Assembly (NCBI GenBank): GCA_049287205.1
Contig: JBAQFJ010000001.1
Location: 43,156 to 107,155 of the forward strand
Source: Microgenomates group bacterium
GTDB taxonomy: Bacteria; Patescibacteriota; Microgenomatia; UBA10105; UBA927
DNA: 64,000 nucleotides
Reading direction: 5' to 3'
Position numbers and translations under genes: made by a program
Shown: one piece after another, positions 8,136 through 55,893 of the stretch
Layout: each line of letters begins with the position of its first letter
Numbering within the stretch: the stretch's first letter is position 1
The notes under the pieces: model-generated
What the model was told of the DNA's origin: nothing
What the model saw: the letters and a program-made list of their open reading frames with translations, nothing else
Databases searched by the model: none

Positions 8136-15461
<7,326 letters not shown>

Positions 15462-34796: not shown

Positions 34797-36287
34797 ATGA
34801 CAACAAAAAGGGTGTTTTTATTCTTAAGCATTCTTGTCAGTTTGTTATATCTTCCGTTTTTAGGGAATGCGTTTGTATCCGATGATATCCCAGGGATTGT
34901 ACAGCAGGTTCCGACGTGGAATTTCTTAACTTCCTTTGAATGGACACAGTTTATTCATATCAGCACATTTTTGCAGCACTGTACGTATCTGCTTTTTGGT
35001 TTAGCGCCGTGGGCGTTTCGACTGGTAAACATTTTGTTTCATATTGGCGCTGTGTGGCTTATGTACCTGATAGGGAAGCGAATGGAGAGGCCAACAGGTG
35101 CGTTTGTGGCGGCGTTGGTGTTTGCCGTACATCCGCTCGTCACCGAATCTGTGACGTGGATATCAGGGGGCGCGTATGCCGAGTACACATTTTGGTTTCT
35201 TCTTTCCTTTTGGTGCTATTTGCAAGGCAAAAAACGATATTGGTTCGCTGTATTCTTTTTTATATTGAGTGTGTGTACGTCAGAGAAGGCGTTGTCACTG
35301 TCACTTTTGTTTCTTGTGTATGAATGGTTTTATGGAAATTTGAAGAAAAACTGGGGTAGTTTGATATCATTATTAATAGTAAATGCTAGTTTGATAGTAT
35401 TCTACGGACTGCAAATTGGAACGCGGACACAACAGCTTACTGCCTCTTCGTATCAGTCACTTTCTGGGTATATGAATCCGTTTGTGCAGATTCCTGTTGC
35501 AATAAGTTCGTATTTGCAGTTGTTCGTATTTCCTGTGGGGTTGACGCTGTATCATTCTGAACTTCAGTTTCCGTGGTGGAATTTTGCGATTCGTGCGGTC
35601 GTTGTTTCTTTGTTCTTGGGCATAACGGTGTATGCGCTTTTGAAGCGAAAACCAATTGGATTTTGGTTATGCTGGTTTGTGATTGGACTGTTACCAACCC
35701 TGACACCACTCAAGATTGGGTGGGTAGTTGCGGAGCGGTATGTGTATTTTTCACTCATCGGGGTATGTATGGTCGCTGGTATTTGGTTTGATATGGTACT
35801 ACATAGAAAGAAGTTGTTTGTATATAGTCTTTGTGTTGGAATATTGCTACTTCTTGGATATTGCACACAAACTGTATACAGGAATAGTCAGTGGCGGACG
35901 GAAGACACACTTTGGATTGCTACAGCGGTCACTTCACCGTCTCATCCGCCGACATGGAACAATATGGGGGATGTATATGCGCGGGCAGGGAATCCGGAGA
36001 AAGCAGCGGAAATGTTTCAGCGGGCAATCAATCTTAATCCACAGTATGCGGATGCGTATCACAACTTGGGACACACGTACTTGCGGATGGGGAAGTTTGC
36101 AGAGGCAAAACAACAATATAAACAGGCGATTCGCTTCAATCCGTATCTTTGGCAGTCATATCGGGATCTCGCGGTGATTTTTTACGAAGAACATGACATT
36201 GAGGCTGCGAAGGCAGCGTTATCAAAAGCGTTGCAGCTTGCGCCAAACGATGAAACGCTTTTAAAATTGCAGAAAATTTTTCGGTGA
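34797..36287 (+). CDS. polytopic membrane protein with C-terminal TPR repeats (GT-C/PMT-like architecture)
   Basis: About 10 TM helices, then TPR repeats (NNMGDVYARAGNPEKAAEMFQRAINLNPQYADAYHNLGHTYLRMGKFAEA...). Confidence 0.55.
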   Translation: MTTKRVFLFLSILVSLLYLPFLGNAFVSDDIPGIVQQVPTWNFLTSFEWTQFIHISTFLQHCTYLLFGLAPWAFRLVNILFHIGAVWLMYLIGKRMERPTGAFVAALVFAVHPLVTESVTWISGGAYAEYTFWFLLSFWCYLQGKKRYWFAVFFFILSVCTSEKALSLSLLFLVYEWFYGNLKKNWGSLISLLIVNASLIVFYGLQIGTRTQQLTASSYQSLSGYMNPFVQIPVAISSYLQLFVFPVGLTLYHSELQFPWWNFAIRAVVVSLFLGITVYALLKRKPIGFWLCWFVIGLLPTLTPLKIGWVVAERYVYFSLIGVCMVAGIWFDMVLHRKKLFVYSLCVGILLLLGYCTQTVYRNSQWRTEDTLWIATAVTSPSHPPTWNNMGDVYARAGNPEKAAEMFQRAINLNPQYADAYHNLGHTYLRMGKFAEAKQQYKQAIRFNPYLWQSYRDLAVIFYEEHDIEAAKAALSKALQLAPNDETLLKLQKIFR

Positions 36288-37356: not shown

Positions 37357-37500
37357 AAAAGAACACGCTGTTTATCCAACATGTTTATGTGTTAGCCCCA
37401 CCAGGTGGTATTGACGTGTTGGCGTCGTACTTTTTTGACTTGGTGGGGATTTTTTTGGGGAATAAACCTTTGTCCTTCGTTTCTTGGTATAATCGAACCT

Positions 37501-39378
37501 ATGGATCAGAAGCATATCAGGAATTTTGCCATCATCGCCCATATCGACCATGGGAAGTCCACACTTGCAGATCGTTTACTAGAAATGACGAAGACGGTTG
37601 CCATGCGGGATATGCAGGCGCAGCTTCTTGACAGTAATCCGATTGAACGGGAACGGGGTATTACCATCAAACTTGCTCCTGTGAGAATGCATTATAAATA
37701 TAAGAATGAAGAATATATTTTAAATCTCATTGACACCCCTGGGCATGTGGACTTTGGGTATGAAGTATCACGCTCTATGGCAGCCTGTGAAGGCGCATTG
37801 TTGGTCGTTGACGCAACGCAGGGTGTACAGGCACAAACCTTAGCGAATCTCCATCAGGCGCGTGCAAGCAAGCTCACGATTATTCCACTGATCAATAAAA
37901 TTGATATGCCAATGGCACGTATCGAAGAAACCAAACAAGAACTTCGTGATTTAGGTTTTGTGGATGAGGAAATGATAGAAATTTCTGCAAAGACCGGTGT
38001 GAATGTCGATAAAGTTTTGGAAGCAATCGTGACACGGATACCGCAGCCATCAGGGAAAGAAGACGCGCCGCTTCGTGCACTGATCTTTTCTTCTCAGTAT
38101 GATACGCATAAAGGCGTCGTTGTTTTTGTTCGAGTAATTGATGGTTCGATACATTACGATACAGATATACATATTCATTTTCTTGCATCAAAATCCACTG
38201 TGACACCAATCGGTGTTGGTATTTTTCATCCGCAAATGCAGGAGACAAAAAGTCTTGTGGCAGGAGAAGTTGGCTATATCGCAACGGGTTTGAAGGATGT
38301 GCGTATGGCAAAAGTAGGAGACACGGTGACCATTGTTCCTGATGAAGATCATATTCCTTATGTTGAGCTATTATCCGGATACAAAGAACCGAAATCTATG
38401 GTGTTCGTGGGGTTATACCCGATTGAATCCAATGAATTCCAACATGCAAGAGAGGCGATGGAGAAATTGCAGCTTTCAGACAGTGCGTTTACCTTCAGGC
38501 CGATTTCATCTTTAGCACTTGGGAACGGATTTCACTGTGGGTTTTTGGGATTGTTGCACGCGGAAATTGTGCAGGAGCGGATTCAACGGGAATTTGGATT
38601 GTCACTTTTGGCAACGAGTCCGTCTGTTGAATATTTGCTTGCTCTCAAAAGTGGTTCATCTTTGTCAAAACTCGGGTTCACTGCATCTTCAATCATTCAC
38701 GATGAGGAAATGGAAAAATCAGGAAGTACTGTTGTATCGATCCAATCAGCTACAGCGTATCCGGATCCTACTGTTGTGGAATCTGTCCGTGAGCCGATTA
38801 TGCAGGTTGCTGTGTATTGTCCGAAACGATTTGTCGGAGCGGTTATGCAGCTCTCGGAAGAGAAGCGGGGAGAATACATCGATCTTGTGTATCACGGAGA
38901 ACAGGCGGAATTTACGTATCTTATTCCACTGTCCGAGATGATTGTGGATTTTTTTGACCGGTTAAAGAGTGTGACCGAAGGGTATGCGTCGCTTGACTAT
39001 GAATTTTTTGCATACAGCCCGGTGGAAGTTTCAAAAGTTGATATACTCGTTAATCGCGAACGGGTGGATGCACTCGCATTTTTAATTGTCAGGGATCAGG
39101 CACACAGGCGGGGAAAAGAGATCGTTGAACGATTAGTGAAGGTGTTGCCGCGGCAGCAATTTAGTATCCCTGTGCAGGCTGCCATTGGCGGCGAAGTGAT
39201 TGCGAGAGATGACATCAAAGCATTCAGAAAAGATGTCATTCAAAAATTATATGGCGGAGACAGAACTAGAAAAGACAAATTGCTTGATAAACAGAAAAAA
39301 GGGAAAGCGAAAATGAAACTGATCGGTCGGGTGGAAATTCCGCAAACCGCATTTTTTGACGTCCTTCGGAACAAATAA
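37501..39378 (+). CDS. lepA: elongation factor 4 (LepA)
   Basis: MDQKHIRNFAIIAHIDHGKSTLADRLL G-domain, DTPGHVDF, and a LepA C-terminal domain. The ATG at 37501 lies 7 nt after TGGTATAAT. The track start 37405 is an upstream extension. Confidence 0.9.
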   Translation: MDQKHIRNFAIIAHIDHGKSTLADRLLEMTKTVAMRDMQAQLLDSNPIERERGITIKLAPVRMHYKYKNEEYILNLIDTPGHVDFGYEVSRSMAACEGALLVVDATQGVQAQTLANLHQARASKLTIIPLINKIDMPMARIEETKQELRDLGFVDEEMIEISAKTGVNVDKVLEAIVTRIPQPSGKEDAPLRALIFSSQYDTHKGVVVFVRVIDGSIHYDTDIHIHFLASKSTVTPIGVGIFHPQMQETKSLVAGEVGYIATGLKDVRMAKVGDTVTIVPDEDHIPYVELLSGYKEPKSMVFVGLYPIESNEFQHAREAMEKLQLSDSAFTFRPISSLALGNGFHCGFLGLLHAEIVQERIQREFGLSLLATSPSVEYLLALKSGSSLSKLGFTASSIIHDEEMEKSGSTVVSIQSATAYPDPTVVESVREPIMQVAVYCPKRFVGAVMQLSEEKRGEYIDLVYHGEQAEFTYLIPLSEMIVDFFDRLKSVTEGYASLDYEFFAYSPVEVSKVDILVNRERVDALAFLIVRDQAHRRGKEIVERLVKVLPRQQFSIPVQAAIGGEVIARDDIKAFRKDVIQKLYGGDRTRKDKLLDKQKKGKAKMKLIGRVEIPQTAFFDVLRNK

Positions 39379-39635
39379 TGTTGTGTGACTTCTTTTTTTG
39401 TGTTTTTTTCCATAACGATTGAACATTAAATAAATTGTGTGATATTTTTAGTTCTATTGTGTGACATTTTGTATTGTTCCAGTTGGCTAAACCTACGAAT
39501 AGAAACAGCAATCTATTTTTATGAATTTTTGAGAATGTTTGTAGATACGAATCAGCTTTGAAACATATTTTGGTATATTTTGAAGCTAAATCGAGGCTTG
39601 CATTTGTCTCATGTCTATTATTATTATAGTTATAG

Positions 39636-39683
39636 ATTAGTAAAGTTTGGTAAAGTTCTTTGTAAAAATTAGTAAAAATTTGG
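39636..39683 (+). promoter_or_regulatory. pair of direct repeats ATTAGTAAA(G/AA)TTTGG upstream of the HTH-Cache gene
   Basis: Repeats at 39636-39650 and 39668-39683 (starts 32 nt apart), 50-100 nt upstream of ATG 39736. Confidence 0.3.
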
Positions 39684-39735
39684 AAAGTTAAGTACTGACA
39701 AAGGGGTTTGGGCAGTACGGACCTGACCAGTCTCT

Positions 39736-41630
39736 ATGCCCAAAACCTATTCCGTAAAAGAAGCAGCCGCAATCCTCGGCTTTTCCACAAACACCATCTA
39801 TTCTTTCCTGAACGCGAAGAAACTGAAAGGACTTCGTATCGGCAAAGGGAAGTTTCGGATTCCGCAAAGTGAAATCGACCGGATGACCGGCGCGTCAGCG
39901 TCTGATACTTCAATATCTGAACTACCGGTGATTATTGAGCATCCGCATCGAAATGAAGAAAAATCCCTCGTCTTTCAGGAAACCATTCCGTATCTGCAGC
40001 ATTTGTCGTTGACTGATTGGTTTATTGGTATGGGATCTATCATTTTCGGATTGTCTATGTTTATTTATACCGCATCCATCGAGTTGTTTATTACCACACA
40101 ACTGATGGGGTGGTATTGGGTGCTTCGGGTATTATTTATTTTGTTTGGCGTCGGATTTTTGACGGCGAAGATTTCTGTTCGGGTTCCACCGATTTGGGTA
40201 ACTGTGTATCAGTGTTTGTTAATCGGATCATTTGGGTGGTTTATTGTGATTTCTCATTTAGCACATGACACGCAGGGGACAGTTGTCGGGTTTTTTATCT
40301 GTTTAATCATGCTTGCACACCTCTTTTTCAAACCCGCCTATCACACACTGATTGCGCTCACGGTACTGGAAGCAGTGGTGGTCAATACGATACTCTTTGT
40401 GTTTGCACCGGAGTATCTTGCACTTATCAACGCATCTTTTGGTATAACCGTCCGTTCGGGAATATGGGGACAACTTGCCACGTTAATTGTGCCGTTCGTT
40501 ATGTATCTTTTATTAGTTGTTTCTCACCGATTTTTCCTTCGGTTTTATTATTTTCTTATCATCCTTGGGTCTGTAGCATGCCATATCACCGCGTATTTTT
40601 GCGGCGTGCATCTTTTTTGGCGGCAGGGGCTTGAGTTTTTGTTTACCGGTATCATGTTATTTATCTACGCGATGCGGCAGACGGACGCGATGAAAGCATA
40701 CAAAAAAACATGGGTGACAGGAACAGTTTTAGGGCTTATATTTGCATGTTTTCTCGCTATTGTTTTGGCACTCAGGGTATTTGAACTGACAATGTTTGAT
40801 CATGCAAACAAGGAATTGCAGGTAAAAGCGGAAAACGGCAAGACATATTTGGAAACGGTATTCGGATATGCAAAAAAAAGCTTTGATGTATCTGCTCGGG
40901 AAGAAGGCCTCAGGCAGGCGCTTGAAACGAAAGATAGAAAAACATTAACTGAATCGGCAAAAAACATTTATGAACAATTTCCGCATATGTATCGGATTGT
41001 CATATTGGACAAGGATGGAACTGAACTGGCTAATTATCCTGAAGACGCTGCGTTGATCGGGAAAAACTATGCATACAGGGAGTATTTTCAGGATGCACTG
41101 ATTCAAGAAGGTACGGTATTTTCCGGAGCGGTTCAAACATCAGGTACTGTGAAAAGATATACCATCATTATGGCAAGTCCCATTGTCGAACATGGCACTA
41201 TTTATGGTGCGATTGCCGGATCATTTGATATGGATGAGTTGGGACGGAACCTCCAATCATTTGCAGCAGATGAAGAAGGAGAATATTTTGGGGTATTGGA
41301 TCGTGATGGTGTGCGCATCATCAATCCGGATATAACAACGATCGGATCAGCAATAACTTCTGCAGAGCTTGATAAATTCAAGAACATTCCATATTGGAAG
41401 GAAAATCTTGATACACGGATTAATCCACATGGGGTTCTTGTACATGCAACATATCGCTCGGTGGACTTCGCGAATGTATATATATCCGCAGTCCAGCCGT
41501 ATAAGGAAAATCTTCAGGCGAATTTGATCGCGTTGTGTATCACTTTGGTTATCAGTGCGTATGGGTACATTGCTACGCTCATCGCTTGGTATGTCTGCTA
41601 TAGAAAAAGTAAAAAACATGGAACTGGGTA

Positions 41631-41631
<1 letters not shown>
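39736..41631 (+). CDS. membrane-bound one-component regulator: N-terminal HTH (Xis/MerR-like) + multi-TM region + extracytoplasmic Cache-like sensor domain + C-terminal TM
   Basis: [44 protein letters not shown] is an HTH_17-type motif. About 8 TM helices. A ~250-aa domain resembles a Cache fold ([16 protein letters not shown]...YFQDA...VFSG...YTIIMASPI...[12 protein letters not shown]) and is followed by a final TM helix. Its TAA stop overlaps the ATG of the next gene. Confidence 0.55.
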
Positions 41632-45869
<4,238 letters not shown>

Positions 45870-45875
45870 TTCCTA

Positions 45876-47548
45876 TGGCAGAAAAATACAGTATTTCATC
45901 GATGGGCAATAGCATTGTGTGTGTAGCGCGTGTTATTCGTACAAATCCACGTCGTGTGATCATCGCGGCGCTTTGCTGTTTTGTCATCGCTTCATTTTTT
46001 GTGTTTCGTGGAAAATATATGATGACTGTCTGGGGTTTCTTACATACAGATTTTGTTGTTGCAGAAAATGGTGCATCGTACAGGACAAATGAAGAACCGC
46101 ATTTTACCGCACATATCGGTAGTGCATCAGATAAAAGTGTGACAAAAACAGCAATGACTGTCGAAGGGAAACAGTTTTCTTTGACGTATGTCCCGAATCT
46201 TGCTACAGAAAGTGCGAATTTTGCAACACATTCAGCTGTAACTGCAACGGATTCCGCTGAATCAACGTATTCACTGTTTGCTCAACTTGATGCGATGAAT
46301 AAACAGATTATTTCTACAGTCGGAAAAACGGAACAGGTGTTTGACGGTCCTAGAGAAGTGATTTCACACGAAGGATTATTTCAGGGAAGTGTTATTTATA
46401 GTATTGATGCACATAAGTTTATTGAAGAATGGACAATACAACAATTATTGCAGCAACAGATCACATTTCGTACAGAAAGCCCTGACTATATCTGTGCCAT
46501 CTTGCCTGATCAAACATGGGAGTACCGGAATGGAGCAAAACCAATGATAAAAATTACCACGACAGTCACTGTTGATGGCGTTGTGACAACACTCCCAACG
46601 GTTTCTGAGAAAAAAATCGAAGCGGGAAACAGTGCTGAAGTGCAGCTTATTGTTCCAATTGCGGCGTATGGAAAACACACAGTGTTTACTCGGGTGTATG
46701 AGCGCGTCGATGGAAAAACATTGTCGCCGACAGAATTATTGCAAGCGGCAGTGGGCGAGAAGCTTGCGACGCAAAGTGCGCTCTTGTCATTTCCTGTCCA
46801 TTCTATGACGATGTTTGGCGGAGAAGTTGTTCTTATCAATGGTGATGATCATACTGCGGGCGTGCTTTCTCCAAATGGGTTGTATACGGCATTGCCGTTA
46901 ACGCTCGATACTGTCGCCTGCGGAGAGCAAACATGTTACGGATCCGACGCTTCAGAATATGTTGTGTTTTCACCACATATGACGGTACTCCAAGGACAAG
47001 AAACAGAACCGGTTTCCCGTATTCCTGTTGGTGACGGACCCATCGGAGGAATTGCTGTTGTAGATAATACCGTATACCGCACCGCAGCGACGAGTCCAGT
47101 TGGAGGGATATATACAATTACAAACTTTGAAAAAGATGAACAAAAAATATATTCAGGATATTCAAATGCAAACGAAATAGCAGTCCATTCCAAATTAAAA
47201 AATATTGCGTTTATCGCCGACGGACAACTACAGACAGGGGAACTTGAGGGTGATGTGCATCCTGTGCAACTGCCTTCACCTATCCTATCAATTTCGTTTG
47301 GAACTGATGGATATTTGTATGGCATTATGTCGTATGAGAAACGACAACAGGATATGATTGTTCGAATTTCTTTGGCGACGAACTCTCTTGAAATTCTGAA
47401 CAATGTTTCGGGGCAATTTTCTTCGCTTGTTGCGAGCGAGCACGCACTCATTATTTCTATGAACATTGCTGATGGGTCGTGGGCGATTGTGCCGATTCCT
47501 TTTAGCGATATGCGCTGGCACACCTATGCGGAAGGAGTAACACAATGA
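45876..47548 (+). CDS. signal-anchored extracytoplasmic protein (557 aa), unknown function
   Basis: N-terminal TM helix (VIIAALCCFVIASFFVF). The first ATG is at 45876, 4 nt after the giant gene's stop. Confidence 0.55.
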
Positions 47549-50500
47549 AACTATTCCGTAGCTTTCGATCAGTTGCAGTCATACTGTGTTTACTGATGGT
47601 TTTATATGGTCCAAGTAGCGTTTGGTTAGCGCTTCGCATACCGGAACCAGTCAAAACAATTATTTCAGATGCGGCGCCGAAAGAAGTACATGCGGAAAGC
47701 GGGTTTATCCCTTCATCAATTGCGATTACCCAAGGTAAAGAATTGACAGATATGAATTATGCGGCAGTTTCCAATGGAACGATTAGTGCCGGTGCCGGCG
47801 CACACTGGAGAATATTGTCAACGACAAGTGGTATTGACGCAACAATGACATTTGAAGATGTGGAACTGCACAGTGCAAACGTGATGTATATCAATTACGA
47901 TGGATCGGTTTCGAGTGCATCACTCACGTATCAGATACAACTGTGGGACGAAACTGATCAGGTATGGAGAAGTGTTTTACCACATGGAACAAATTTAGCA
48001 AACGTTGCAGAATCTGCCGCGGGACTTGTTACACAGGTGACGGCAGCGGTCAATAATGGATATCAGTTTCCGATTTACGACGGTTATTTTTCTAACGGTT
48101 CCAATACGCCGGTACCAACACCCCTTGCTCATTTTGTCAACGCATCCAAGCAAGTAAAAATCCGATTTTTATCCAGTGTCTCAACAGCCAATTATGAGAT
48201 GCGTGTTGATTATCTTGGCATTGAACCGACGATTGATACCATGCGGTATGCAAGCAGTCTTGCGTTTGGATCAAACGGCGGATCTATTTCAGGAGCAGGA
48301 GAATACAATGATACGACGACTGATGATGCTTCAGGAGTCATCATCACCGCGGGATCTTCTGGGATTGATGCACAGTTTTCATTTACGAACCTTGCGACTC
48401 CGTATGTAGGTGCAAATACCATTCTTGTGGAATTTTCTGGAAACAAGGATGCAAGTTTGACGAATTATTATGTGTATATAAAAGATTACACTGCAACATG
48501 GGACGTCTTAAATGCAACAGCGCTCACCAATACCGCTGACGGAAAATATGAGTTTGCAACGGATGCAACACAGCTAGCAAATTATCTTTCAGGAAACACT
48601 GCAGTAATTCGTATCTATTCATCAGACAGTTCAGGAACCGCAACAGTAGATCATCTGCGTATTACCATCGGATCGACAACGACCAGTACTGGCATATATA
48701 ACGGAACGATTTCCCGTGGAGGGACAGCAACAGGAACGCCTGCAAACACAACAACGTTGGATACCACAACAACCGCGGCAAGTTGGACCATTCCTACGAC
48801 AACAGCTGATACCAGAACGACGACAGAATATTTTGGTGACTGTGGTACTGCAACAAATTCTTGTACTGCGTCCAATATAGTGATGCCGGTGACAGTCCCA
48901 GACAATCAACTGGTGACAGGCGTGCATATGGCGTGGCGGTATTTAACATCGGTTGCGACGGTTGATTTGGAATTTGGCATTCGGAGTAAAAAAATGGGGA
49001 ATGTCCCTATGTCCACTGCTGCGGCGGATGAAATAGCATTGATGACGATGTATCGCACTGCCGCATATCCGATGCAGCCGCAGATTGGCACTGATCCTTT
49101 AACTACAGTACCTGTATATCAGCCACATGAATATGTCGATACCGTGAACAATGCAATTACGGTGTATGCGAGGACAGCTGCAACAACTGTTGCCACAGCA
49201 CAAACTATGGCGTGGGATTTTGCGTTTGTTTCTATCAAGACGATTGATGTCGGGCAGTCGATTACTGCTGCGTGGACGCCAACGGCCGGATCTTTGACGT
49301 ATGGGACAACGACGACGTCTAATTTTCGGTTTACCAATGCTGACGACAACGGATATTGGGTTGTCACAAGGAACGGAACGAGTGGTACTGACGCAACATT
49401 GTCATTTACTGGAATAACAATACCTACAAACGCAAATAAGTTGGTTGTAACGACAAAATTATTGTGGTCGGTTGTTTCTACTGCGTATGAGTTATATCTG
49501 TATGATTTTAATAGCAGCAGTTGGCGGGAAATTACACCACATAGCACAAATTTTGTTGCCTATACGACAGCAAGTACGGAACAAATAGTGCAAATGGAAA
49601 TATATGACGGCTATTTTTCTGATGGTTCCAATACACCAATACCAACGCCTCTTTCTTATTTTGCTCCAAGCGGAGAAGCGAGGATTCGTGTTGTATCTAC
49701 ATCAACGACTTCTAACTTGAGCTTCGATTACGCATCGCTTGAGTTTGTGAAAGATCCTGTTTATTTTCCGGCAAGCGTGAGTCAAACCGGTACAGTGACT
49801 GCAGGAACGGAATATAACGATTTGACGACGGATGATGCGACATCCAATTATGTGTTGACGTATTCCGGTGGATTGCAGGCAAATTTCACCTTCAAAAATG
49901 TATTGACACCGCCCGCAGGATCAAATGCCCTGTACGTGGTGTATTCAGGCTATCGGACGACGATCACAAATTATTCTGTGAAAATCAGAAATTATGGAGG
50001 AGGCAGTTGTACTGCCGGATATGAAGCATTAAACGCCACTGTGCTGACAAATACGGCAGATGCAACGTATTATTTCCTGTATGCCATTTCCGACTGGAAT
50101 TGTTATATAAGTAGCGGTCAGATGGAAATTCAGGTGGCAACAACTGGAGCAAGTGGAATCATCAATGTCGATTTTTTAAAGATTGCACTCGGGAGTGTAA
50201 ATACAACAAGTAATACGTCAAGTATTGATATGGGTGCAGTATATAAAAATGATGTGACGAAAATCCGTACGATGGATACAAGCGCTACGTTTAATGGATT
50301 ATTAAACGGCTGGCGGGTAAAGACCGTGCCAAATACGATGAGTAATCGTCAGTATGATGGCCCCACAACCGTTTCGGGGCGGGTGGAAATGCCCCTCACG
50401 ATGCCGAGCAATTCTTATCCGGTTTCCCTTATCTATATGTATGCGGGAACACCGTATACGACGCTTGTTACTGTCATGCCAACGTTTAAGGACGCAAAAA

Positions 50501-50799
50501 ATTATTATGCTGATGCTATGACATACAAGGCAACTATCGCCGCAAATACCGCTGCTGGTTTGCCGCGTGCAGTTGATACCATTACGAATGCAATTGCGAC
50601 GTATACAGTGAGAGAAGGATGGTATGGGACAAATGTGACTACTACTACCGCAGTGACAGCAATGCCGAATGTTCCGGATGCGCTCAATACTGTAGATAAT
50701 ACGGTGGAATTTCGGTATAGGACCAGTGCATCGACAGGATTCTTAAGCACGATTTTTGATCTTGACGGCGTATTTGTTGCTCTCAGGTATGTTGACTGA
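47545..50799 (+). CDS. large secreted repeat protein (1084 aa), paralog A
   Basis: Signal peptide. Internally duplicated modules with motifs YDGSVS..TYQIQLWD..WR..PHG, YDGYFSNGSNTP.PTPL, ANYEMRVDYLGIEP and EYNDTTTDDA. ATGA overlap with the upstream gene. Confidence 0.75.
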   Translation: MKLFRSFRSVAVILCLLMVLYGPSSVWLALRIPEPVKTIISDAAPKEVHAESGFIPSSIAITQGKELTDMNYAAVSNGTISAGAGAHWRILSTTSGIDATMTFEDVELHSANVMYINYDGSVSSASLTYQIQLWDETDQVWRSVLPHGTNLANVAESAAGLVTQVTAAVNNGYQFPIYDGYFSNGSNTPVPTPLAHFVNASKQVKIRFLSSVSTANYEMRVDYLGIEPTIDTMRYASSLAFGSNGGSISGAGEYNDTTTDDASGVIITAGSSGIDAQFSFTNLATPYVGANTILVEFSGNKDASLTNYYVYIKDYTATWDVLNATALTNTADGKYEFATDATQLANYLSGNTAVIRIYSSDSSGTATVDHLRITIGSTTTSTGIYNGTISRGGTATGTPANTTTLDTTTTAASWTIPTTTADTRTTTEYFGDCGTATNSCTASNIVMPVTVPDNQLVTGVHMAWRYLTSVATVDLEFGIRSKKMGNVPMSTAAADEIALMTMYRTAAYPMQPQIGTDPLTTVPVYQPHEYVDTVNNAITVYARTAATTVATAQTMAWDFAFVSIKTIDVGQSITAAWTPTAGSLTYGTTTTSNFRFTNADDNGYWVVTRNGTSGTDATLSFTGITIPTNANKLVVTTKLLWSVVSTAYELYLYDFNSSSWREITPHSTNFVAYTTASTEQIVQMEIYDGYFSDGSNTPIPTPLSYFAPSGEARIRVVSTSTTSNLSFDYASLEFVKDPVYFPASVSQTGTVTAGTEYNDLTTDDATSNYVLTYSGGLQANFTFKNVLTPPAGSNALYVVYSGYRTTITNYSVKIRNYGGGSCTAGYEALNATVLTNTADATYYFLYAISDWNCYISSGQMEIQVATTGASGIINVDFLKIALGSVNTTSNTSSIDMGAVYKNDVTKIRTMDTSATFNGLLNGWRVKTVPNTMSNRQYDGPTTVSGRVEMPLTMPSNSYPVSLIYMYAGTPYTTLVTVMPTFKDAKNYYADAMTYKATIAANTAAGLPRAVDTITNAIATYTVREGWYGTNVTTTTAVTAMPNVPDALNTVDNTVEFRYRTSASTGFLSTIFDLDGVFVALRYVD

Positions 50800-50820
50800 T
50801 ATGTACAATAAAACACACAT

Positions 50821-53800
50821 CATGAAAAAGAAATTGGTTACCATTATTACGTTAAGTGCGTTTGTTTTACAGATGCTTGGTATCCCACGCGCATTTCTTA
50901 TAGAAAGATATCCGAATATAGCAGAAAAATATCCCGAAACAAGTCTAGAAGAAGTGTCTGCTGATTATCAATATACGTCAGTCAGTCAATCTGTTGATAA
51001 AGGGGGAGAGGTGGTGGGAAATTATCTTTCCACCCGTATTGCTGACAACGATTATATGCGTATTATGGGAACGGCGACGGGTGTTGAGGTGACGTATACG
51101 ATTGATAATGTCAGGTTATGGAATGCGAATCGACTGATTGTCATGTATGACGGGTCAGTGTCCAACGCGGCAATGACATATCAGGTGCAGATTCGGGATG
51201 TGGCAAATGGAACGTGGCGAAATATTGTCCCGCATGAAGCAAACTATGCCAATACTGCGGATGCGGGAGCAGGACTAATTCTTGCTCCAGCAACAACAGG
51301 GGCTACTGCAGGAGGCTATATTGAAATTTATGACGGATATTTTTCCAACGGCTCCAATACGCCGATTTCAACTCCGTTATCTAATTTTGTTAACAATACT
51401 AATCAGGTGCAGATTCGCATGTATTCAGCCGCCTCATCAGCAAATTATGAGATGCGTGTTGATTACATCGGCGTACAAGCAACCTATTCACCTATGTATT
51501 ATGTGTCGGGAAGAGTAAATAACGATGGAGGAACAATCACAAATGAATACAATGACACAACGCATGATGACGCCATGACCAACATGTCAGTTGTTGCAAA
51601 TGCCAATGGAATTGATGTGGAGATGTTGTTTAACGGTGTTTCTGTTCCATATACAAGTGCTAATACGTATCTTGTGGAATTTTCAGGACTTAGGACCACA
51701 ATTACTAACTACAGTTTGTACCTTCGGGATTTTGCAAATAATCAATGGGATTTGTTAAACGCAACCCCTTTGACGGCAACAACTGATGATACGTATTATT
51801 TTGCGCTTGTTCCGTCATCGCTTTCCCAGAATATGTCCGATTATATTCAAAATGGTCAAATGAAAATAAATATTACCTCCGCGCAAACAAGCGGCTCTGT
51901 AACTGTTGATTATCTTCGTATCACTATCGGTTCAACAGCGACAAATGTGGTGCCCTACGCAGGGACGATTACAAGAGGATCGACAAATACAAATTCTGTT
52001 CTTTCGACGCGGACTGTGGATACCTCACAGGCTTTAAACGGATGGATTATCAGTGCGTCAAACAGCGATGCGCGGACAACAACGGAATTGTACGGGGATT
52101 GCGCAACAGCAACGAGTTATTGTGCTTCAGCGAATACTTCTTTGCCCGTGACTGTTCCTGATGCATCTGTTGTGCAGAGTGTGATTACTGCGTATCGGTT
52201 TAATACTTCAAGTGCGACGTTAGACACGACATGGACGGTGAGAAATTATGCGGGTGCATACACAGATATTATGGTTGCTCCTGTTACGCAAAGTGATGTG
52301 GCGACCAACATCATGTATATACAGGAACTCAGCAATCCGATGCGTCCGCAGATTGGGGAAGGGCCGCTTACGGCAATTCCGACATTCACGCCGAATTTGT
52401 ATGTCGATGACATAACAGACAATGCTGTGAATATTCGGTTTCGTACGTCTGTAGCAGAAGCTGTTGCAAGTTCTGTGACATGGGATTTTGCTTTTGCAAC
52501 GATTAAATCAATTACCCCACAAAACAAAGTAATGTACAAGTTTACCCCGACTGGCGGATCGTTTACATATGGAACAAACAATGCGTCCAACTGGCGGTTT
52601 GCTATTGGTGACGATGCACAGCCATGGAATACCGATCCAAATGCGACTTCAGGAACAGATGCTGTGTTGTCTTTTTCTGGGGTTTCAATCCCAACTGGCG
52701 CTAATAAGATGATTGTGACGTCAAAACACCGGTTTGATGTTTCCAATACCTATAAGATGTATATCTATGATTATGTGACGTCGGGTTGGCGGGATTTAGT
52801 GCCGCATGGGAGTAATTTTACCGGCGATGCAACCGTTGCAAACTGGGATTATGCGCAATTTGAGATTTTTGATGGGTTTTTCAGTAACGGATCAAACGTG
52901 AAGGTGAGTACACCTTTGACAAATTTTATTTCTTCAGGTGCTATGCAAATTCGGATAGTGAACACCAGTACGACCGCGGATTTGGATTGGGATTTTGCGC
53001 AGATTCAGTTTGTGACAGATCCAGGGTATCATCCTTCATCACTTGCAGTGACGGCTCCAGCGACACTCACTGCCAATGAATACAATGATTTGTATACAGA
53101 TGACAATACGTCAAATGTAACAGTGACACCTTCAGGGAATGCTGCAGAAGTGTTATTGACGTTTTCCAATATTGTTAAACCGCCTGAAGGGTTCAATGCG
53201 ATCCTATTGGAGACAAGTGCGTTTAAGACGACTGCGGGAAGTTATGATGTGAGCGTGAAGAATGTGAAAACAAATACATTTGAACCGATTGTCTCCGGTG
53301 TGACAAGAACTGCAGACGCAACGGATTATTTCTTATTTTCCGTCGGGGATTGGGATAATTATATTGATAGTGCGACCAATACGATCATACTTCGGTACTA
53401 TACGAGTGTAAATAATAATGTGTTAAATTTGGATCTCGTGCAGATAACCCTTGGTACTATTCCCAGTAGTTCTACTAATATGACTTCTTATGCAGGTGCT
53501 GTGATGAATGGCACTGTTGCCGCTGCTTCCAACATGAATACGTATGCAAATACAGATGAACTACAGCCGGATCAGTATGTGACGGTGACGACATATAATC
53601 CGACAACCGGTATGCATGCGATGAATGGCATGGGAGAAAAGGAACTAGAATTTGTGTTTCCATTTCATATGGAACCAAACACAGTACCAGCCGGTATTAT
53701 CTATATGTTTCGGGGACAAAACGGGAACGCTACGCAGGCAATTGCACCGTCTATCCAAGAGGTTGGCGGACATTTCCGGCCGATGCTAACTGCACAAAAT

Positions 53801-54121
53801 TTTCTGTATTCCATGACGACACTCGCTGCACTTCCAGGGCCTACTGACACTCCATCAACGATTAACGTTACTGCACAGACATTTCGTCAAGGATGGTACG
53901 TTGATCAATTGGAAGACCTTTGGGTAAGCAAAAACAATAAGATAATCTTCAGGTTTTATACTGCCGTTGGTCTAGCATCCGTTATTGATACTAAGTTGAT
54001 TTTAGATTCTGTGTTTTTCTCGTATCGCTGGGTGAATACAAAAACAACGAGCGATCCTGCATCACAGATGCGGCACGGGAAATGGTGGTTTGGGGGATTT
54101 CCATGGAAATTTGGGTATTAA
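50821..54121 (+). CDS. large secreted repeat protein (1100 aa), paralog B
   Basis: Signal peptide MKKKLVTIITLSAFVLQMLG. Same motif set as paralog A (YDGSVSNAAMTYQVQIRD, YDGYFSNGSNTPISTPL, ANYEMRVDYIGVQA). Confidence 0.75.
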
Positions 54122-54151
54122 CCTTTTGTATAGGTTGTGTATAATAGGCAC

Positions 54152-55135
54152 ATGAAGCAGACGTGGATTATCGCAGTGCTTTTTTTTATGGTTGGCGGGA
54201 GTATCGGGTATGGTGCAAGATGGTTTTTGTATCGTCCGCCTGTCAAACAAAATGGTATCAAGGCAGTACGACAATCGGGATATACATTGACCAATCCGCT
54301 TCTTGAATGCGAAGTCGGTGATCAGGAATCATTTGGTGAAATACGATTGTTTCGGAGTAAACTTCAATCAGCGGTAGATAAAATTATTTCTTCAAAAAAA
54401 GCTGATCATATTTCTGTTTATTTTCGTGACCTGAATAACGGTCCATGGATGGGAATTAATGAAAAAGAGGTATTTTCTCCGAGCAGTTTGCTTAAGGTGC
54501 CACTCATGATGTCTGTGTATCAGTTAGCAGAAAAGAATCCAAAAATTCTTGACGAACAGGTATTGTATAACGGAACAGAGGATAAAGACGCGACACAGAA
54601 TGTTAGACCATCCATTGAACTTGAGCCAAAAATTGAATATTCTTATGAACAATTGGTAGAACGGATGATCATGTATTCTGACAATAATGCGGCAAAATTA
54701 CTGTCACAGGAGGTGAAGGAGGCCGCATTTTTCCGGCCATACGATGAGTTAGGGCTGGACGCGCCAGTGTTGCAGCGCGGGGAATATTATCTGAAAGTGA
54801 AAGATTATGCGACTTTTTTTCGTGTGTTATTTAACTCTTCGTATCTGACGCGGGAATACTCTGAAAAAGCACTGGGACTACTCCTTAAAAGTGAATTTAA
54901 GGATGGATTAGTGGCGGGTGTGCCGTCAGGAACGCTCGTTGCACACAAGTTTGGTGAACGGATCTGGGAGGATACAAAAGAGCATCAGATGCACGATTGC
55001 GGCATTGTGTATTTTCCCAATAATCCGTATCTTTTGTGTGTGATGACGCGGGGGAATGATTTTTCCTCATTAAGTAGTGTTATCCGTGATATTTCAAAAC
55101 TGGTGTACGATGAAATAGCGGCGCAACGGAAATAA
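54152..55135 (+). CDS. class A beta-lactamase-like serine hydrolase (membrane-anchored)
   Basis: N-terminal TM helix. S-x-x-K candidate (SSLLK), SDN loop (YSDNNAA) and a KTG-like KFG. Confidence 0.5.
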   Translation: MKQTWIIAVLFFMVGGSIGYGARWFLYRPPVKQNGIKAVRQSGYTLTNPLLECEVGDQESFGEIRLFRSKLQSAVDKIISSKKADHISVYFRDLNNGPWMGINEKEVFSPSSLLKVPLMMSVYQLAEKNPKILDEQVLYNGTEDKDATQNVRPSIELEPKIEYSYEQLVERMIMYSDNNAAKLLSQEVKEAAFFRPYDELGLDAPVLQRGEYYLKVKDYATFFRVLFNSSYLTREYSEKALGLLLKSEFKDGLVAGVPSGTLVAHKFGERIWEDTKEHQMHDCGIVYFPNNPYLLCVMTRGNDFSSLSSVIRDISKLVYDEIAAQRK

Positions 55136-55182: not shown

Positions 55183-55893
55183 ATGGCAGTAAAAAAACAA
55201 CTCATTGTTCCGCTTATCGCAGGTGTTCTTGCTGTGATTGCGTTTGTGCCTGCGCTTTATTTTTATCGTGAGTATACGAATACCAAAAAAACGTTGGAGA
55301 CAACGAAATCGGAAATGGCAAAGACAGGTAATGCGTTTATCACCGATCTCCGTGCTGTTATGCTCCTTCCTGATGAAGAACCGACCATTGCAACGGTTGA
55401 TGATGTCGAGAAAGTGAAGATGAACGCCTTTTTTACGAATGCAGAAACAGGGGATAAGGTGGTGATTTTCAAATCTATGAAAAAGGCGATTCTGTATCGT
55501 CCGAGTATCAAAAAAATTATTGATATGGCGCCGGTGAATGTTGCCTCTGCGCCTTCAAAAACAGTGTCTGAATCAGTGACGCCAACACCAAAGTCTGTTG
55601 TCGGGTCGCCATATACGTTTATTTTATATAACGGAACAACGAAAGTCGGATTAACAAAAGGGTACACGACTATTGTTGAGGAGAAAATCGTGGGGGCAAC
55701 TGTTGTTGATACAGACAATGCGGTAAAGAAAGACTATCAGACATCGATGCTTAGTGATATAAAAGGGACAAAGGGGGACGATGCCACTGCAATTGCAAAA
55801 ATCTTAGGGTTGACCGTCAGTCCACTTCCTGCAGGAGAAACTGCGTCACAAAGCGCTGATTTTCTTATCATTCTTGGCGCCGACCAGAAGTAA
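55183..55893 (+). CDS. LytR_C (LytR/CpsA/Psr C-terminal) domain membrane protein
   Basis: N-terminal TM helix. C-terminal ILYNGTTKVGLTKGYTT...GATVVDTDNA...ILG. Confidence 0.45.
   Translation: MAVKKQLIVPLIAGVLAVIAFVPALYFYREYTNTKKTLETTKSEMAKTGNAFITDLRAVMLLPDEEPTIATVDDVEKVKMNAFFTNAETGDKVVIFKSMKKAILYRPSIKKIIDMAPVNVASAPSKTVSESVTPTPKSVVGSPYTFILYNGTTKVGLTKGYTTIVEEKIVGATVVDTDNAVKKDYQTSMLSDIKGTKGDDATAIAKILGLTVSPLPAGETASQSADFLIILGADQK

What the first reader, a model, noticed from the sequence alone, without database searches (positions are those of the whole stretch)
39736..41633. One-component membrane regulator with an N-terminal Xis/MerR-type HTH, multiple TM helices and an extracytoplasmic Cache-like domain, translationally coupled to the collagen-like gene
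The architecture is HTH DNA-binding domain ([44 protein letters not shown]), about 8 TM helices, a ~250-aa periplasmic Cache-like domain and a final TM helix. It resembles ToxR/CadC-like membrane-tethered transcription factors but uses a different DNA-binding fold and a small-molecule-sensing Cache module.

Its stop overlaps the start of the 1412-aa collagen-like gene (TAATG), implying stoichiometric co-expression.
Basis: partly seen in the sequence, partly recalled or inferred. Interest (0 to 1): 0.6.

Follow-up and report, generated by a model that had tools for sequence, protein, structure and literature searches.

The report
Membrane-bound sensor-regulator paired with collagen fibre
A membrane protein of tiny uncultured "Microgenomates" bacteria carries a DNA-binding head inside the cell and a sensor domain outside. 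It always sits beside a gene for a long collagen-like surface fibre and a conserved array of DNA repeats, so it probably switches that fibre on or off in response to an outside signal.

Summary
ORF 39736-41631 (631 aa) scores above Pfam thresholds for HTH_17 (res 5-49) and dCache_1 (res 356-578). An AlphaFold model (pLDDT 83) shows a winged HTH, a disordered linker, nine TM helices, a double-PDC Cache and a tenth TM. Charge bias over 139 relatives places the HTH inside and the Cache outside. The stop overlaps the collagen-gene start (TAATG).

New here:
- The family has at least 214 clusters at 50% identity, in Microgenomates MAGs and not in viral contigs.
- In about 50 species-level loci the next gene encodes a TM-anchored protein with a family-specific N-domain, usually followed by collagen repeats.
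- All 57 distinct upstream regions carry the oriented motif aaACTTGTAAAaac, mostly 2-5 copies spaced 10/22/32 bp.
- The window has one such cluster, at 39634-39689 (0.2 expected by chance).
- Where the two genes are separated, a reversed array usually lies between them.

Best reading: a transmembrane transcription regulator whose Xis/BldC-like HTH binds phased direct repeats and controls its own gene and the fibre gene. This is a new variant of a known kind. DNA binding, the ligand and the sign of regulation are inferred. The translational coupling is specific to this clade.

The parts
39598..39627 (+). Promoter-like block: TTGCAT (39598-39603), 18-nt spacer, TATTAT (39622-39627)
   Evidence: The block is conserved in the six close orthologous loci. 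It occupies the same position as TTGACA-N17/18-CATAGTAGATATAG in other clades (CTTGACA occurs in 20/57 and CATAGTA in 19/57 upstream regions). The consensus scanner did not call it, because TTGCAT matches only 3/6 of TTGACA. This is an inferred feature, not a shown one.
39634..39689 (+). Array of direct repeats of the motif aaACTTGTAAAaac (here TAGTAAAG, TGGTAAAG, TTGTAAAA, TAGTAAAA, TGGAAAG). The invariant G sits at 39640, 39650, 39662, 39672 and 39682 (spacing 10, 12, 10, 10). Predicted operator of the HTH_17 domain.
   Evidence: The PWM finds four sites at 39634, 39656, 39666 and 39676; the fifth (39646) falls below threshold here but passes in L001 and L007. This is the only cluster in 64 kb on either strand, against 0.2 expected in shuffles. 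The same oriented motif occurs upstream of the gene in 57/57 non-identical loci, with spacings peaking at 10, 22 and 32 bp.
39703..39715 (+). Conserved leader element GGGGTTTGGGCAG, complementary to the first codons ATGCCCAAAACC. Role unknown.
   Evidence: It is conserved in the close orthologues and in several Gottesmanbacteria-type loci, and it co-occurs with a CCCAAAAC start of the coding sequence. The alignment fold gave no covariation support and the single-sequence fold is not better than shuffles (z -0.87).
39736..41631 (+). Gene for the 631-aa HTH_17 / 9-TM / dCache_1 / TM protein (stop included)
39745..39888 (+). Cytoplasmic winged helix-turn-helix (res 4-51), excisionase/MerR-like (HTH_17)
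   Evidence: Pfam and NCBIfam score above cut-off. The model shows beta-alpha-alpha-beta-beta-alpha. The closest solved relative is mycobacteriophage Pukovnik Xis gp37 (4J2N, E=7.7e-5). 23 positions are at least 85% conserved over 139 relatives.
39889..40008 (+). Low-complexity, poorly conserved linker (res 52-91)
   Evidence: pLDDT is below 50 for res 54-83. Length and sequence vary in the alignment.
40009..40785 (+). Nine-helix transmembrane bundle (res 92-350) of unknown fold family
   Evidence: Helices are defined by the models (TM-only model pLDDT 85, pTM 0.82). No Pfam family hits any of 13 members. No PDB fold match (best E=0.94). The conserved residues are mainly Gly, Trp, Phe and Pro, with Asp94 and Asp178 the only conserved acidic ones.
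40786..41517 (+). Extracytoplasmic double-PDC (dCache_1) domain (res 351-594). Its stalk helix is continuous with TM9.
41518..41628 (+). TM10 (res 595-621) and a 10-residue basic tail (RKSKKHGTG). No cytoplasmic output domain follows.
41629..41633 (+). TAATG stop/start overlap with the fibre gene
   Evidence: The same overlap or a 4-nt overlap occurs in L001, L003, L007 and L008, and L009 has a 5-nt gap.
41631..45869 (+). Partner gene, 1412 aa:
- N-terminal TM anchor (res 26-45, nt 41706-41765)
- family-specific N-domain (res about 60-330, nt 41808-42620)
- collagen G-X-Y region (res 333-1024, nt 42627-44702; 229 triplets)
- C-terminal domain (res 1025-1412, nt 44703-45866)
   Evidence: Pfam Collagen E=4e-100. 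The N-domain profile hits the gene next to the regulator in nearly all loci. The N- and C-terminal domains have no PDB or PHROG relatives of note.

Best explanation
This is a membrane-integral one-component ('transmembrane') transcription regulator of Microgenomates (CPR) bacteria.

**Anatomy.** Its N-terminal winged HTH of the excisionase/MerR-like type is cytoplasmic. A roughly 40-residue flexible linker ties it to a nine-helix membrane bundle. A dCache domain projects outside the cell between TM9 and TM10.

**Proposed DNA binding (inferred).** Several HTH domains bind head-to-tail, on one face of the DNA, to the phased direct repeats aaACTTGTAAAaac. These lie just downstream of the promoter-like block of its own gene. 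In clades where the fibre gene is separate, a reversed array lies in front of that gene too.

**Proposed regulation (inferred).** The protein would control its own synthesis and that of the adjacent membrane-anchored collagen-like fibre of about 200 nm, a likely adhesin or tether. Arrays placed from about +1 onward suggest repression that the signal relieves, but the sign is not known.

**Signal transmission (inferred).** No output domain follows the Cache, and the HTH hangs on a disordered linker. The signal is therefore more likely passed by a change in oligomeric state or clustering of the membrane protein, which would set how many HTHs can polymerise on the array. A piston-type allosteric relay is less likely.

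**Shown:** domain identity, fold, topology bias, gene-pair conservation, and the motif's conservation, orientation and phasing.
For: **Domains and fold.** HTH_17 and dCache_1 score above Pfam cut-offs, and TIGR01764 does too. The model has pLDDT 83. Foldseek's top hits are all dCache ligand-binding domains.

**Topology.** Predicted inner loops carry 11.5 K+R and predicted outer loops 3.1, over 139 relatives.

**HTH constraint.** The HTH is by far the most conserved part, with 23 positions at least 85% identical over 139 clusters at 50% identity.

**The motif.**
- The 7-mer ACTTGTA occurs in 43/57 upstream regions against 0.87% of 8120 background windows. Its reverse complement occurs in 0/57.
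- Every one of the 57 regions has at least one PWM site, and 48 have two to five.
- Spacings are 10 bp (55 cases), 22 bp (20), 32 bp (7) and 12 bp (6).
- The window holds one cluster in 64 kb, exactly here, with 0.2 expected.
- In 25 of 44 loci with a spacer between the two genes, two or more reversed sites lie in the spacer. Only one locus has a forward site there.
- Reversed arrays and 10-11 bp phasing point to recognition of DNA rather than RNA.

**Precedent.** wHTH-only Xis/MerR-like proteins bind variable numbers of direct repeats head-to-tail (BldC, PMC5859096). The nearest solved relative of this HTH is a phage Xis.

**Gene pair.** The pair is conserved in both directions.

**Class.** Membrane-tethered regulators are an established class. 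Its census separately lists HTH_17 (151 proteins) and dCache_1 (936 proteins) (PMC10269533).
Against: - No experiment or direct computation shows that this HTH binds the repeats.
- The PWM was trained on the same regions, although the k-mer test and the spacing are independent of it.
- In 36 loci of other clades a divergently transcribed 317-aa protein with a C-terminal HTH_DeoR-like domain is adjacent and could be the binder. It is absent from the window and from the loci of its clade.
- Promoter positions are inferred from consensus-like hexamers only. The scanner did not call the one in the window.
- Some arrays lie between convergent genes, where a simple operator role is unclear.
- The ligand is unknown and the Cache score is only just above Pfam's cut-off.
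- How a signal would cross nine helices and a disordered linker is unexplained.
Confidence: 0.6

Rival explanations
1. The protein is mainly a structural or assembly partner of the fibre. The nine-helix bundle and the Cache-like domain would form a membrane platform that docks, exports or anchors the fibre's membrane-proximal N-domain. The HTH would only tether the locus to the membrane, so that the giant membrane protein is made and inserted on the spot (transertion), or would provide simple autoregulation.
For: The pair is obligate in both directions. The genes are translationally coupled in the window's clade. Both proteins have membrane-proximal extracytoplasmic domains. Y434 and P435 of the Cache are nearly invariant (138 and 139 of 139) although they are not part of the usual ligand motif. 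A transertion precedent exists for a membrane-bound regulator (PMC9977878, title and abstract seen).
Against: The TM bundle has no conserved polar or catalytic residues and no relative among transporters or secretion components. Coupling is lost in most clades, where a terminator-like hairpin separates the genes. The Cache retains the R-x-Y-F and D positions typical of ligand-binding dCache domains in about 75% of members.
Confidence: 0.15
2. The ACTTGTAAA arrays are bound by a different protein, and the HTH_17 domain has other targets or another role. One candidate binder is the divergently encoded 317-aa HTH_DeoR-like protein of Gottesmanbacteria-type loci.
For: The 317-aa gene lies next to the regulator in 36 loci, and arrays often flank it. 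Nothing here links the HTH_17 to the motif except co-occurrence.
Against: The arrays are present in all 57 loci. That includes the window's clade and the Collier- and Roizmanbacteria loci, where no homologue of the 317-aa protein is found in the sequence held. The HTH_17 is nearly invariant across the same set in which the motif is invariant. Variable numbers of phased direct repeats are the binding mode known for this kind of wHTH (PMC5859096).
Confidence: 0.12
3. The HTH_17 acts as a recombination directionality or architectural factor. The forward and reversed arrays that flank the gene in many clades would then mark an invertible or excisable segment (phase variation of the fibre).
For: HTH_17 is the excisionase family, and the closest solved relative is a phage Xis. 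Arrays in inverted orientation bracket the gene in 25 loci.
Against: No recombinase lies in or next to the module in the window or in the loci examined. All loci show the same gene orientation relative to the partner, so no inverted state has been assembled. There are no relatives in viral contigs. The locus is syntenic with lepA and a PMT_2/TPR gene in several genomes. The window's clade has no second array.
Confidence: 0.03
4. Same regulator, different relay: the signal triggers cleavage in the disordered linker, releasing a soluble 6-kDa HTH that then acts like a free BldC/Xis-type protein.
For: The roughly 40-residue linker is disordered and poorly conserved. Short HTH-only relatives with the same signature exist as separate genes in Woese- and Amesbacteria loci (L064, L066). 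Regulated proteolysis of membrane-bound regulators is well known (review PMC7593790, listed).
Against: No protease gene is conserved in the neighbourhood. The linker has no conserved cleavage motif apart from Pro70, and the TM bundle has no protease-like residues.
Confidence: 0.08

Closest known systems
Transmembrane transcription regulators (TTRs) as surveyed by Demey, Gumerov, Xing, Zhulin & DiRita 2023 (PMC10269533). Examples: ToxR, TcpP, CadC, VtrA; dCache_1-HTH_18 proteins.
   Same: One polypeptide joins a cytoplasmic DNA-binding domain to the membrane and to an extracytoplasmic sensor. The census lists HTH_17 in 151 TTRs and dCache_1 in 936 TTRs.
   Different: - ToxR and CadC use an OmpR-type winged helix and a single TM.
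- The dCache TTRs seen in the census have the order TM-dCache-TM-HTH_18, with the HTH after the sensor.
- Here the HTH_17 is N-terminal, is separated from the Cache by nine helices of an undescribed bundle, and nothing follows the last TM.
- I could not check whether the census contains the HTH_17 + dCache_1 combination. It was built on reference genomes, and the words CPR/Patescibacteria do not occur in its text.
BldC of Streptomyces and phage/ICE excisionases (Xis, RdfS): small winged-HTH proteins
   Same: They share the winged-HTH type, and the nearest solved relative is Pukovnik Xis 4J2N. Their known binding mode is head-to-tail oligomers on variable numbers of direct repeats (PMC5859096). 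That matches the 1-5 oriented repeats at about 10-11 bp phasing found here.
   Different: Those proteins are small, soluble and lack sensors. Here the domain is fused to a polytopic membrane sensor. BldC itself was not among the PDB sequence matches at E<=10. The repeat sequence differs: BldC's is AATTxxxx(C) (PMC5859096).
ArnR/ArnR1 of Sulfolobus acidocaldarius (PMC6396743)
   Same: Membrane-bound HTH regulators that control genes for cell-surface filaments (title and abstract).
   Different: They are archaeal, have a different HTH and domain order with C-terminal TMs, and lack a Cache domain. The analogy is by function only and was not compared by sequence here.
dCache_1 chemoreceptor and sensor-kinase ligand-binding domains (PctA/B/C, Mlp24/37, DctB, KinD)
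   Same: Same double-PDC fold. A local motif NYAYREYF resembles DctB NDYAFRDYF.
   Different: There is no HAMP, kinase or MCP output after the second TM. The position aligned to the amino-group-binding Asp of the amino-acid sensors is Ser.
Bacterial collagen-like surface proteins (Scl1/Scl2, Lcl, BclA), for the partner gene
   Same: Long G-X-Y, Thr-rich triple-helix region between non-collagen end domains. NCBIfam Scl2/SclB scores 326 bits through the repeats.
   Different: The anchor is an N-terminal TM helix, not LPXTG. The N-domain is family-specific and has no known relatives. The gene is always paired with the regulator.

Membership tests
Transmembrane transcription regulators (operational class of PMC10269533) | A recognised DNA-binding domain | tested here: met
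   HTH_17 38.1 bits (cut-off 27); TIGR01764 33.3 bits (cut-off 28.8)
Transmembrane transcription regulators (operational class of PMC10269533) | At least one transmembrane region in the same protein | tested here: met
   Ten hydrophobic helices in the hydropathy profile and the models
Transmembrane transcription regulators (operational class of PMC10269533) | Actually regulates transcription from the membrane | not testable with these tools
   Only indirect support: a conserved operator-like array
ToxR/CadC-like receptors | N-terminal OmpR/PhoB-type winged helix (Trans_reg_C) | tested here: not met
   No Trans_reg_C hit at E<=1; the HTH is HTH_17
ToxR/CadC-like receptors | Single transmembrane helix followed by a periplasmic C-terminal sensor | tested here: not met
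   Nine helices before the sensor and one after it
dCache_1 (PF02743) | Profile score at or above Pfam's gathering score | tested here: met
   48.6 bits against 45, covering 227 of 240 profile positions. All full-length homologues carry it.
dCache_1 (PF02743) | Double PDC fold on a long stalk helix, flanked by two TM helices, outside the cell | tested here: met
   Model, Foldseek TM-score up to 0.78 on the target, charge bias
dCache_1AA amino-acid sensors (PctA type) | Conserved carboxyl-binding Arg/Trp and amino-binding Tyr/Asp positions (residue identities recalled from memory of the PctA literature) | tested here: inconclusive
   HMMER alignment to PctC puts R448 and Y450 at the Arg and Trp positions but Ser496 at the Asp position. 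D498 lies two residues further on. No structural superposition was possible.
Excisionase / recombination directionality factors (HTH_17, TIGR01764) | Winged-HTH domain of the family | tested here: met
Excisionase / recombination directionality factors (HTH_17, TIGR01764) | Works with a neighbouring integrase on a mobile element | tested here: not met
   No integrase in the module. The location is syntenic and chromosomal. No viral relatives.
BldC family | Small (about 70 aa) protein consisting only of the wHTH | tested here: not met
   631-aa membrane protein; BldC chains were not matched in the PDB at E<=10
BldC family | Head-to-tail binding to variable numbers of direct repeats | not testable with these tools
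   Consistent cis-evidence only: 1-5 oriented repeats at 10/22/32 bp spacing
Bacterial collagen-like proteins (partner gene) | Long uninterrupted G-X-Y repeats | tested here: met
   Longest run 209 triplets, 229 in all; Pfam Collagen E=4e-100
Bacterial collagen-like proteins (partner gene) | LPXTG or exosporium-type anchoring, as in Scl and BclA | tested here: not met
   The translation shows an N-terminal hydrophobic helix and no C-terminal LPXTG

The most novel reading that the evidence does not exclude
The protein would be a membrane-embedded, filament-forming Xis/BldC-type DNA binder that pins its own locus to the membrane. Its outside domain would read the state of the collagen fibre itself, for example the docked N-domain or tension on host contact, rather than a free small molecule. 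Attachment of this episymbiont-type cell would then feed back directly on fibre production and on co-transcriptional insertion of the fibre. The forward and reversed arrays that bracket the gene would form a membrane-held DNA loop.
Probability: 0.12. Interest if true: 0.85.

Novelty: new variant of a known kind. Interest (0 to 1): 0.6.

Why it matters
CPR/Patescibacteria have very small genomes, few recognisable regulators and no cultured Microgenomates. How they sense hosts and control their surface is largely unknown.

This module is a compact circuit that can be tested:
- a sensor exposed outside the cell
- a 50-residue DNA-binding head with a predicted 10-bp repeat operator
- a target gene for a surface fibre of about 200 nm that is a plausible attachment organelle

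All parts can be synthesised and tested without cultivating the organism.

It also adds an unusual layout to the membrane-bound regulators: the HTH comes first, then nine helices of an undescribed bundle, then a Cache with no downstream output. It also suggests that the BldC/Xis mode of head-to-tail binding has been harnessed by a membrane receptor.

Tried and rejected
**Searches that fell short**
- The word-indexed homologue search found only 17 relatives, and the profile re-search found nothing new. This understated the family. The exhaustive profile search found 214 at E<=1e-30.
- The TM bundle alone against the PDB by Foldseek gave nothing (best E=0.94). Pfam on 13 TM-only sequences gave nothing.

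**Hypotheses dropped**
- The TM-plus-external domain as an enzyme (GT-C glycosyltransferase for the Thr-rich collagen, O-antigen-ligase-like, or an intramembrane protease). The conserved TM-region residues are Gly, Trp, Phe and Pro plus two Asp, with no His, Ser or Glu. The external domain is clearly a dCache.
- Phage or prophage origin. There are no relatives in IMG/VR, PHROGs hits cover only the HTH, and the position is chromosomal and syntenic.
- The repeats acting in the RNA leader. This is unlikely because reversed arrays occur in front of the partner gene and the spacing follows the DNA helical repeat. Rfam finds nothing in the window.
- A hairpin between GGGTTTGGG and the start codon. 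The leader fold has z -0.87 and there are no compensatory changes in 13 sequences.

**Other negatives**
- The second collagen-like gene of the window (8139-15461, minus strand) is not part of the system. It lacks the partner N-domain and has no array.
- L052 looked like an exception without a partner. Read by eye, its downstream DNA encodes a TM anchor plus a divergent N-domain-like sequence that the profile missed.
Full report
**1. The observation**

The ORF 39736..41631 (+) is present as described, at 631 aa. Its TAA stop (41629-41631) shares a base with the ATG of the 1412-aa ORF 41631..45869.

Pfam places HTH_17 at residues 5-49 (38.1 bits, cut-off 27) and dCache_1 at residues 356-578 (48.6 bits, cut-off 45). 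The downstream ORF is full of collagen repeats (E=4e-100). NCBIfam's excisionase-domain model is also passed.

An identical protein is deposited as 'MAG: DNA-binding protein [Microgenomates group bacterium]' on a 1,020,031-bp contig. Full-length relatives of 43-86% identity exist. This is a real gene in a CPR (Patescibacteria) genome.

**2. Anatomy**

An AlphaFold2 model built on 17 relatives has mean pLDDT 83.4 and pTM 0.70. It shows:
- a beta-alpha-alpha-beta-beta-alpha winged HTH (res 4-51)
- a disordered stretch (res 54-83)
- TM helices at 92-107, 121-146, 153-175, 179-198, 202-223, 243-266, 268-291, 295-314 and 325 to about 350
- a long stalk helix continuing from the ninth TM into a double-PDC domain (res 392-588)
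- a tenth TM (res 595-627) followed by only about ten basic residues

Foldseek against the PDB returns dCache ligand-binding domains exclusively at the top (PctA, PctC, Mlp24/37, DctB, MkcA; E about 1e-9; TM-score on the target up to 0.78).

The positive-inside rule was applied to 139 full-length relatives. Loops predicted to be cytoplasmic carry 11.5 K+R, and predicted external loops carry 3.1. So the HTH is inside, the Cache outside and the C-terminus inside.

The nine-helix bundle was modelled alone (pLDDT 85, pTM 0.82). It has no fold match in the PDB (best E=0.94) and no Pfam family. Its conserved residues are mainly Gly, Trp, Phe and Pro plus two Asp. I therefore dropped the idea that it is an enzyme.

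**3. Size and range of the family**

The word-indexed search gave 17 proteins. An exhaustive profile search with the HTH+TM part gave 214 representatives (50% clusters) at E<=1e-30. Nearly all are 600-690 aa and match from residue 1 across the whole profile. The architecture is fixed, and the bundle was not seen in other contexts among the best 150.

In one-genome-per-species contigs, 59 loci were found. Their titles name Gottesman-, Collier-, Roizman-, Woese- and Amesbacteria, 'Microgenomates group' and 'Patescibacteria group'. NCBI taxonomy places Gottesmanbacteria in the Microgenomates group. Many co-assembly MAGs carry the title 'uncultured Gammaproteobacteria/Pseudomonadales'. I take these to be placeholder names, because their loci are of the same type. 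No relative was found in IMG/VR viral contigs.

**4. The gene pair**

In eight loci fetched through exact-protein look-ups, the next gene on the same strand has the same layout. This includes two loci whose regulator is only 21-26% identical to the query. The next gene encodes:
- an N-terminal TM anchor
- a conserved domain of about 270 aa (motif S-F-x-G-P-x-x-x-T-V-x-R-x-D-G-S-F-x-Y-A ... F-Y-T-K-S-G-K-K-E)
- then G-X-Y repeats

A profile of that N-domain hits the ORF just downstream of the regulator in all but one of the roughly 50 species-level loci that have a complete regulator gene and downstream sequence. G-X-Y runs reach 344 triplets. The one miss (L052) encodes a divergent version by eye.

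In the reverse direction, the N-domain profile in metagenome contigs gave 9 loci (5 distinct). All have the regulator directly upstream.

In the window the collagen region is 229 triplets. At the textbook rise of about 0.29 nm per residue, that is about 200 nm. The N- and C-terminal domains have no solved or phage relatives.

The TAATG overlap or a 4-nt overlap is found in the window, L001, L003, L007 and L008, and L009 has a 5-nt gap. Most other clades have 100-250 nt between the genes, usually with a GC hairpin plus T-run after the regulator stop. Translational coupling, and any inference of fixed stoichiometry, is therefore clade-specific.

**5. A conserved cis-element**

Upstream regions of the close orthologues align well. 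They show a promoter-like block followed by repeats of GTAAA-type words. I tested this across 57 non-identical loci.
- The 7-mer ACTTGTA is in 43 of 57 upstream 150-mers, against 0.87% of 8120 background windows from the same loci.
- Its reverse complement is in none of the 57.
- An iterated weight matrix gives the consensus aaACTTGTAAAaac with an invariant G.
- Every region has at least one site, and 48 have two to five, all in the gene's orientation.
- Distances between neighbouring sites are 10 bp (55 cases), 22 bp (20), 32 bp (7) and 12 bp (6). These are close to multiples of the helical repeat.

In the window the sites lie at 39634-39689, with G at 39640, 39650, 39662, 39672 and 39682. 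This is the only cluster on either strand in 64 kb. Shuffles give 0.2 clusters, and single sites are at chance level (37 against 36).

Over the 698 kb of L-numbered loci held at that point (the 64-kb window was scanned separately) there are 110 clusters. Fifty-three lie directly upstream of the regulator gene or of an HTH-only relative. Most of the rest lie within 3 kb of the regulator gene.

In 25 of the 44 loci with a spacer, two or more sites lie between the regulator stop and the partner start, always reversed. Only one locus has a forward site there (example L017).

Further arrays lie beside glycosyltransferase genes (GT5, GT4) and beside a divergently transcribed 317-aa protein with a C-terminal HTH_DeoR-like domain in Gottesmanbacteria-type loci.

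**6. Interpretation**

The HTH is the most constrained part of the protein, with 23 positions at least 85% identical over 139 clusters. The motif is constant over the same set. The nearest solved relative of the HTH is a phage Xis (4J2N, E=7.7e-5). Xis/MerR-like wHTH-only proteins such as BldC bind variable numbers of direct repeats head-to-tail on one face of the DNA (PMC5859096).

Oriented repeats, variable in number and phased at 10-11 bp, are what such a domain would be expected to bind. The reversed arrays and the phasing argue for recognition of DNA rather than of the transcript.

I therefore read the protein as a transmembrane transcription regulator that controls its own gene and the fibre gene. 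The arrays begin a few bases after the -10-like hexamer, which suggests repression. Promoters were not mapped, and the scanner did not call the window's hexamers.

The Cache has no downstream output domain, and the HTH hangs on a disordered linker. I consider signal-dependent clustering or oligomerisation the most likely relay, with linker proteolysis as an alternative. This step is inference only.

The ligand is unknown. R448, Y450, F451, S463 and D498 are kept in about 75% of members, and the local motif resembles that of the dicarboxylate sensor DctB. The position aligned to the amino-binding Asp of amino-acid sensors is Ser.

**7. Rivals**

- *A mainly structural role as platform for the fibre.* The obligate pairing fits this. 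It has no support from the bundle's sequence.
- *Another binder for the arrays.* The 317-aa HTH_DeoR-like protein is absent from the window and from the loci of its clade, the Collier- and Roizmanbacteria, yet all of these have arrays. It could still be encoded elsewhere in those genomes.
- *An excisionase-type role in DNA inversion.* This is unlikely. No recombinase is nearby, gene orientation is constant in all assemblies and the location is syntenic.

**8. Comparison and novelty**

Membrane-bound one-component regulators are a known and widespread class. One census counted 50,302 of them, with HTH_17 in 151 and dCache_1 in 936, the latter seen as dCache_1 followed by HTH_18 (PMC10269533).

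This protein meets the operational definition of that class. It is not a ToxR/CadC member, because the HTH type and the TM number differ.

The new points are:
- the layout (HTH_17, an undescribed nine-helix bundle, a dCache, and no C-terminal output)
- the restriction to Microgenomates
- the invariable pairing with a TM-anchored collagen-like fibre that has its own N-domain
- the predicted operator of phased direct repeats

I found no paper on any of these. I rate it a new variant of a known kind, of moderate to good interest, because it gives a testable sensory circuit for surface-fibre control in uncultured CPR bacteria.

Noticed in passing
window 8139-15461 (-) and 15468-16007 (-): A second, larger collagen-like gene (2441 aa; Pfam Collagen E=3e-180) accounts for the 53-63% GC island at 10-14 kb. 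It lacks the partner N-domain and has no repeat array. The ORF just upstream of it on the minus strand is a 179-aa fragment with only the N-terminal SAM-like domain of a phage-type integrase.
   Followed up: partly
window 39703-39715 and 39736-39747; the same positions in L001, L003, L007-L009, L018, L020, L023, L025, L026, L036, L053: The leader element GGGGTTTGGGCAG is complementary to the first codons ATGCCCAAAACC. Loci whose protein starts MPKT (CCCAAAAC) mostly carry it, while loci starting MAAT (GCTGCCAC) have GAGGCT before the ATG instead. The alignment fold showed no compensatory changes and a weak energy, so a start-codon-masking hairpin is not supported. The reason for the conservation is unexplained.
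   Followed up: partly
window 39381-39470: Three copies of (A)TTGTGTGA(C/T) lie just after the lepA stop, at about 39381, 39436 and 39458. They are not conserved in the closest locus L008. Their meaning is unknown.
   Followed up: no
L012-L061 (36 loci), e.g. L017 3771-4724 (-): In Gottesmanbacteria-type loci a 317-aa protein with a C-terminal HTH_DeoR-like domain is transcribed divergently from the regulator, and GT5 (starch-synthase-like) and GT4 glycosyltransferase genes lie beyond it. Extra motif arrays sit between these genes, sometimes between convergent gene ends.
   Followed up: partly
L003 18392-18434 (-): A four-site reversed array lies upstream of a 234-aa protein of unknown function (L003 18563-19267). 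A similarly sized gene at the matching position in the window (55183-55893, 236 aa; homology not tested) has no array in front of it.
   Followed up: no
window 1377: A single very strong match to the repeat motif (score 14.3, the best in the window) lies inside ORF 1032-1748, with no neighbouring copies. It is probably chance.
   Followed up: no
window 34797-36287, 37405-39378; L001, L003, L007, L009 (both genes); L008 (lepA only): A multi-TM protein with C-terminal TPR repeats and lepA lie upstream of the module in the window and the named loci. The L003 orthologue of the TPR protein hits PMT_2, a GT-C-type protein mannosyltransferase family. This is a syntenic chromosomal setting. The mannosyltransferase-like gene could glycosylate the Thr-rich fibre (speculation).
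   Followed up: no
window 45875-54121 and 54137-55135: The fibre gene is followed on the same strand by three large ORFs (about 557, 1084 and 1121 aa) with no Pfam or PHROG hits, and then by a class-A beta-lactamase-like or DD-peptidase-like gene. L008 has the first two of these large ORFs in the same order and then reaches its contig end. L003 has an M23-peptidase protein instead. This is probably one surface-protein operon.
   Followed up: partly
L011-L069 record titles: About 23 MAGs that carry the module are titled 'uncultured Gammaproteobacteria' or 'uncultured Pseudomonadales' (binchicken and other co-assemblies). Their loci are of the Microgenomates type, so the titles look like placeholder or wrong taxonomy.
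   Followed up: no
L064, L066, L063: Woese- and Amesbacteria loci hold short HTH-only proteins (80-86 aa) with the same HTH signature. One (L066) lies next to a large protein that weakly matches the partner N-domain. L063 has a very divergent full-length regulator and a partner without collagen repeats. These may be split or ancestral forms of the module.
   Followed up: no
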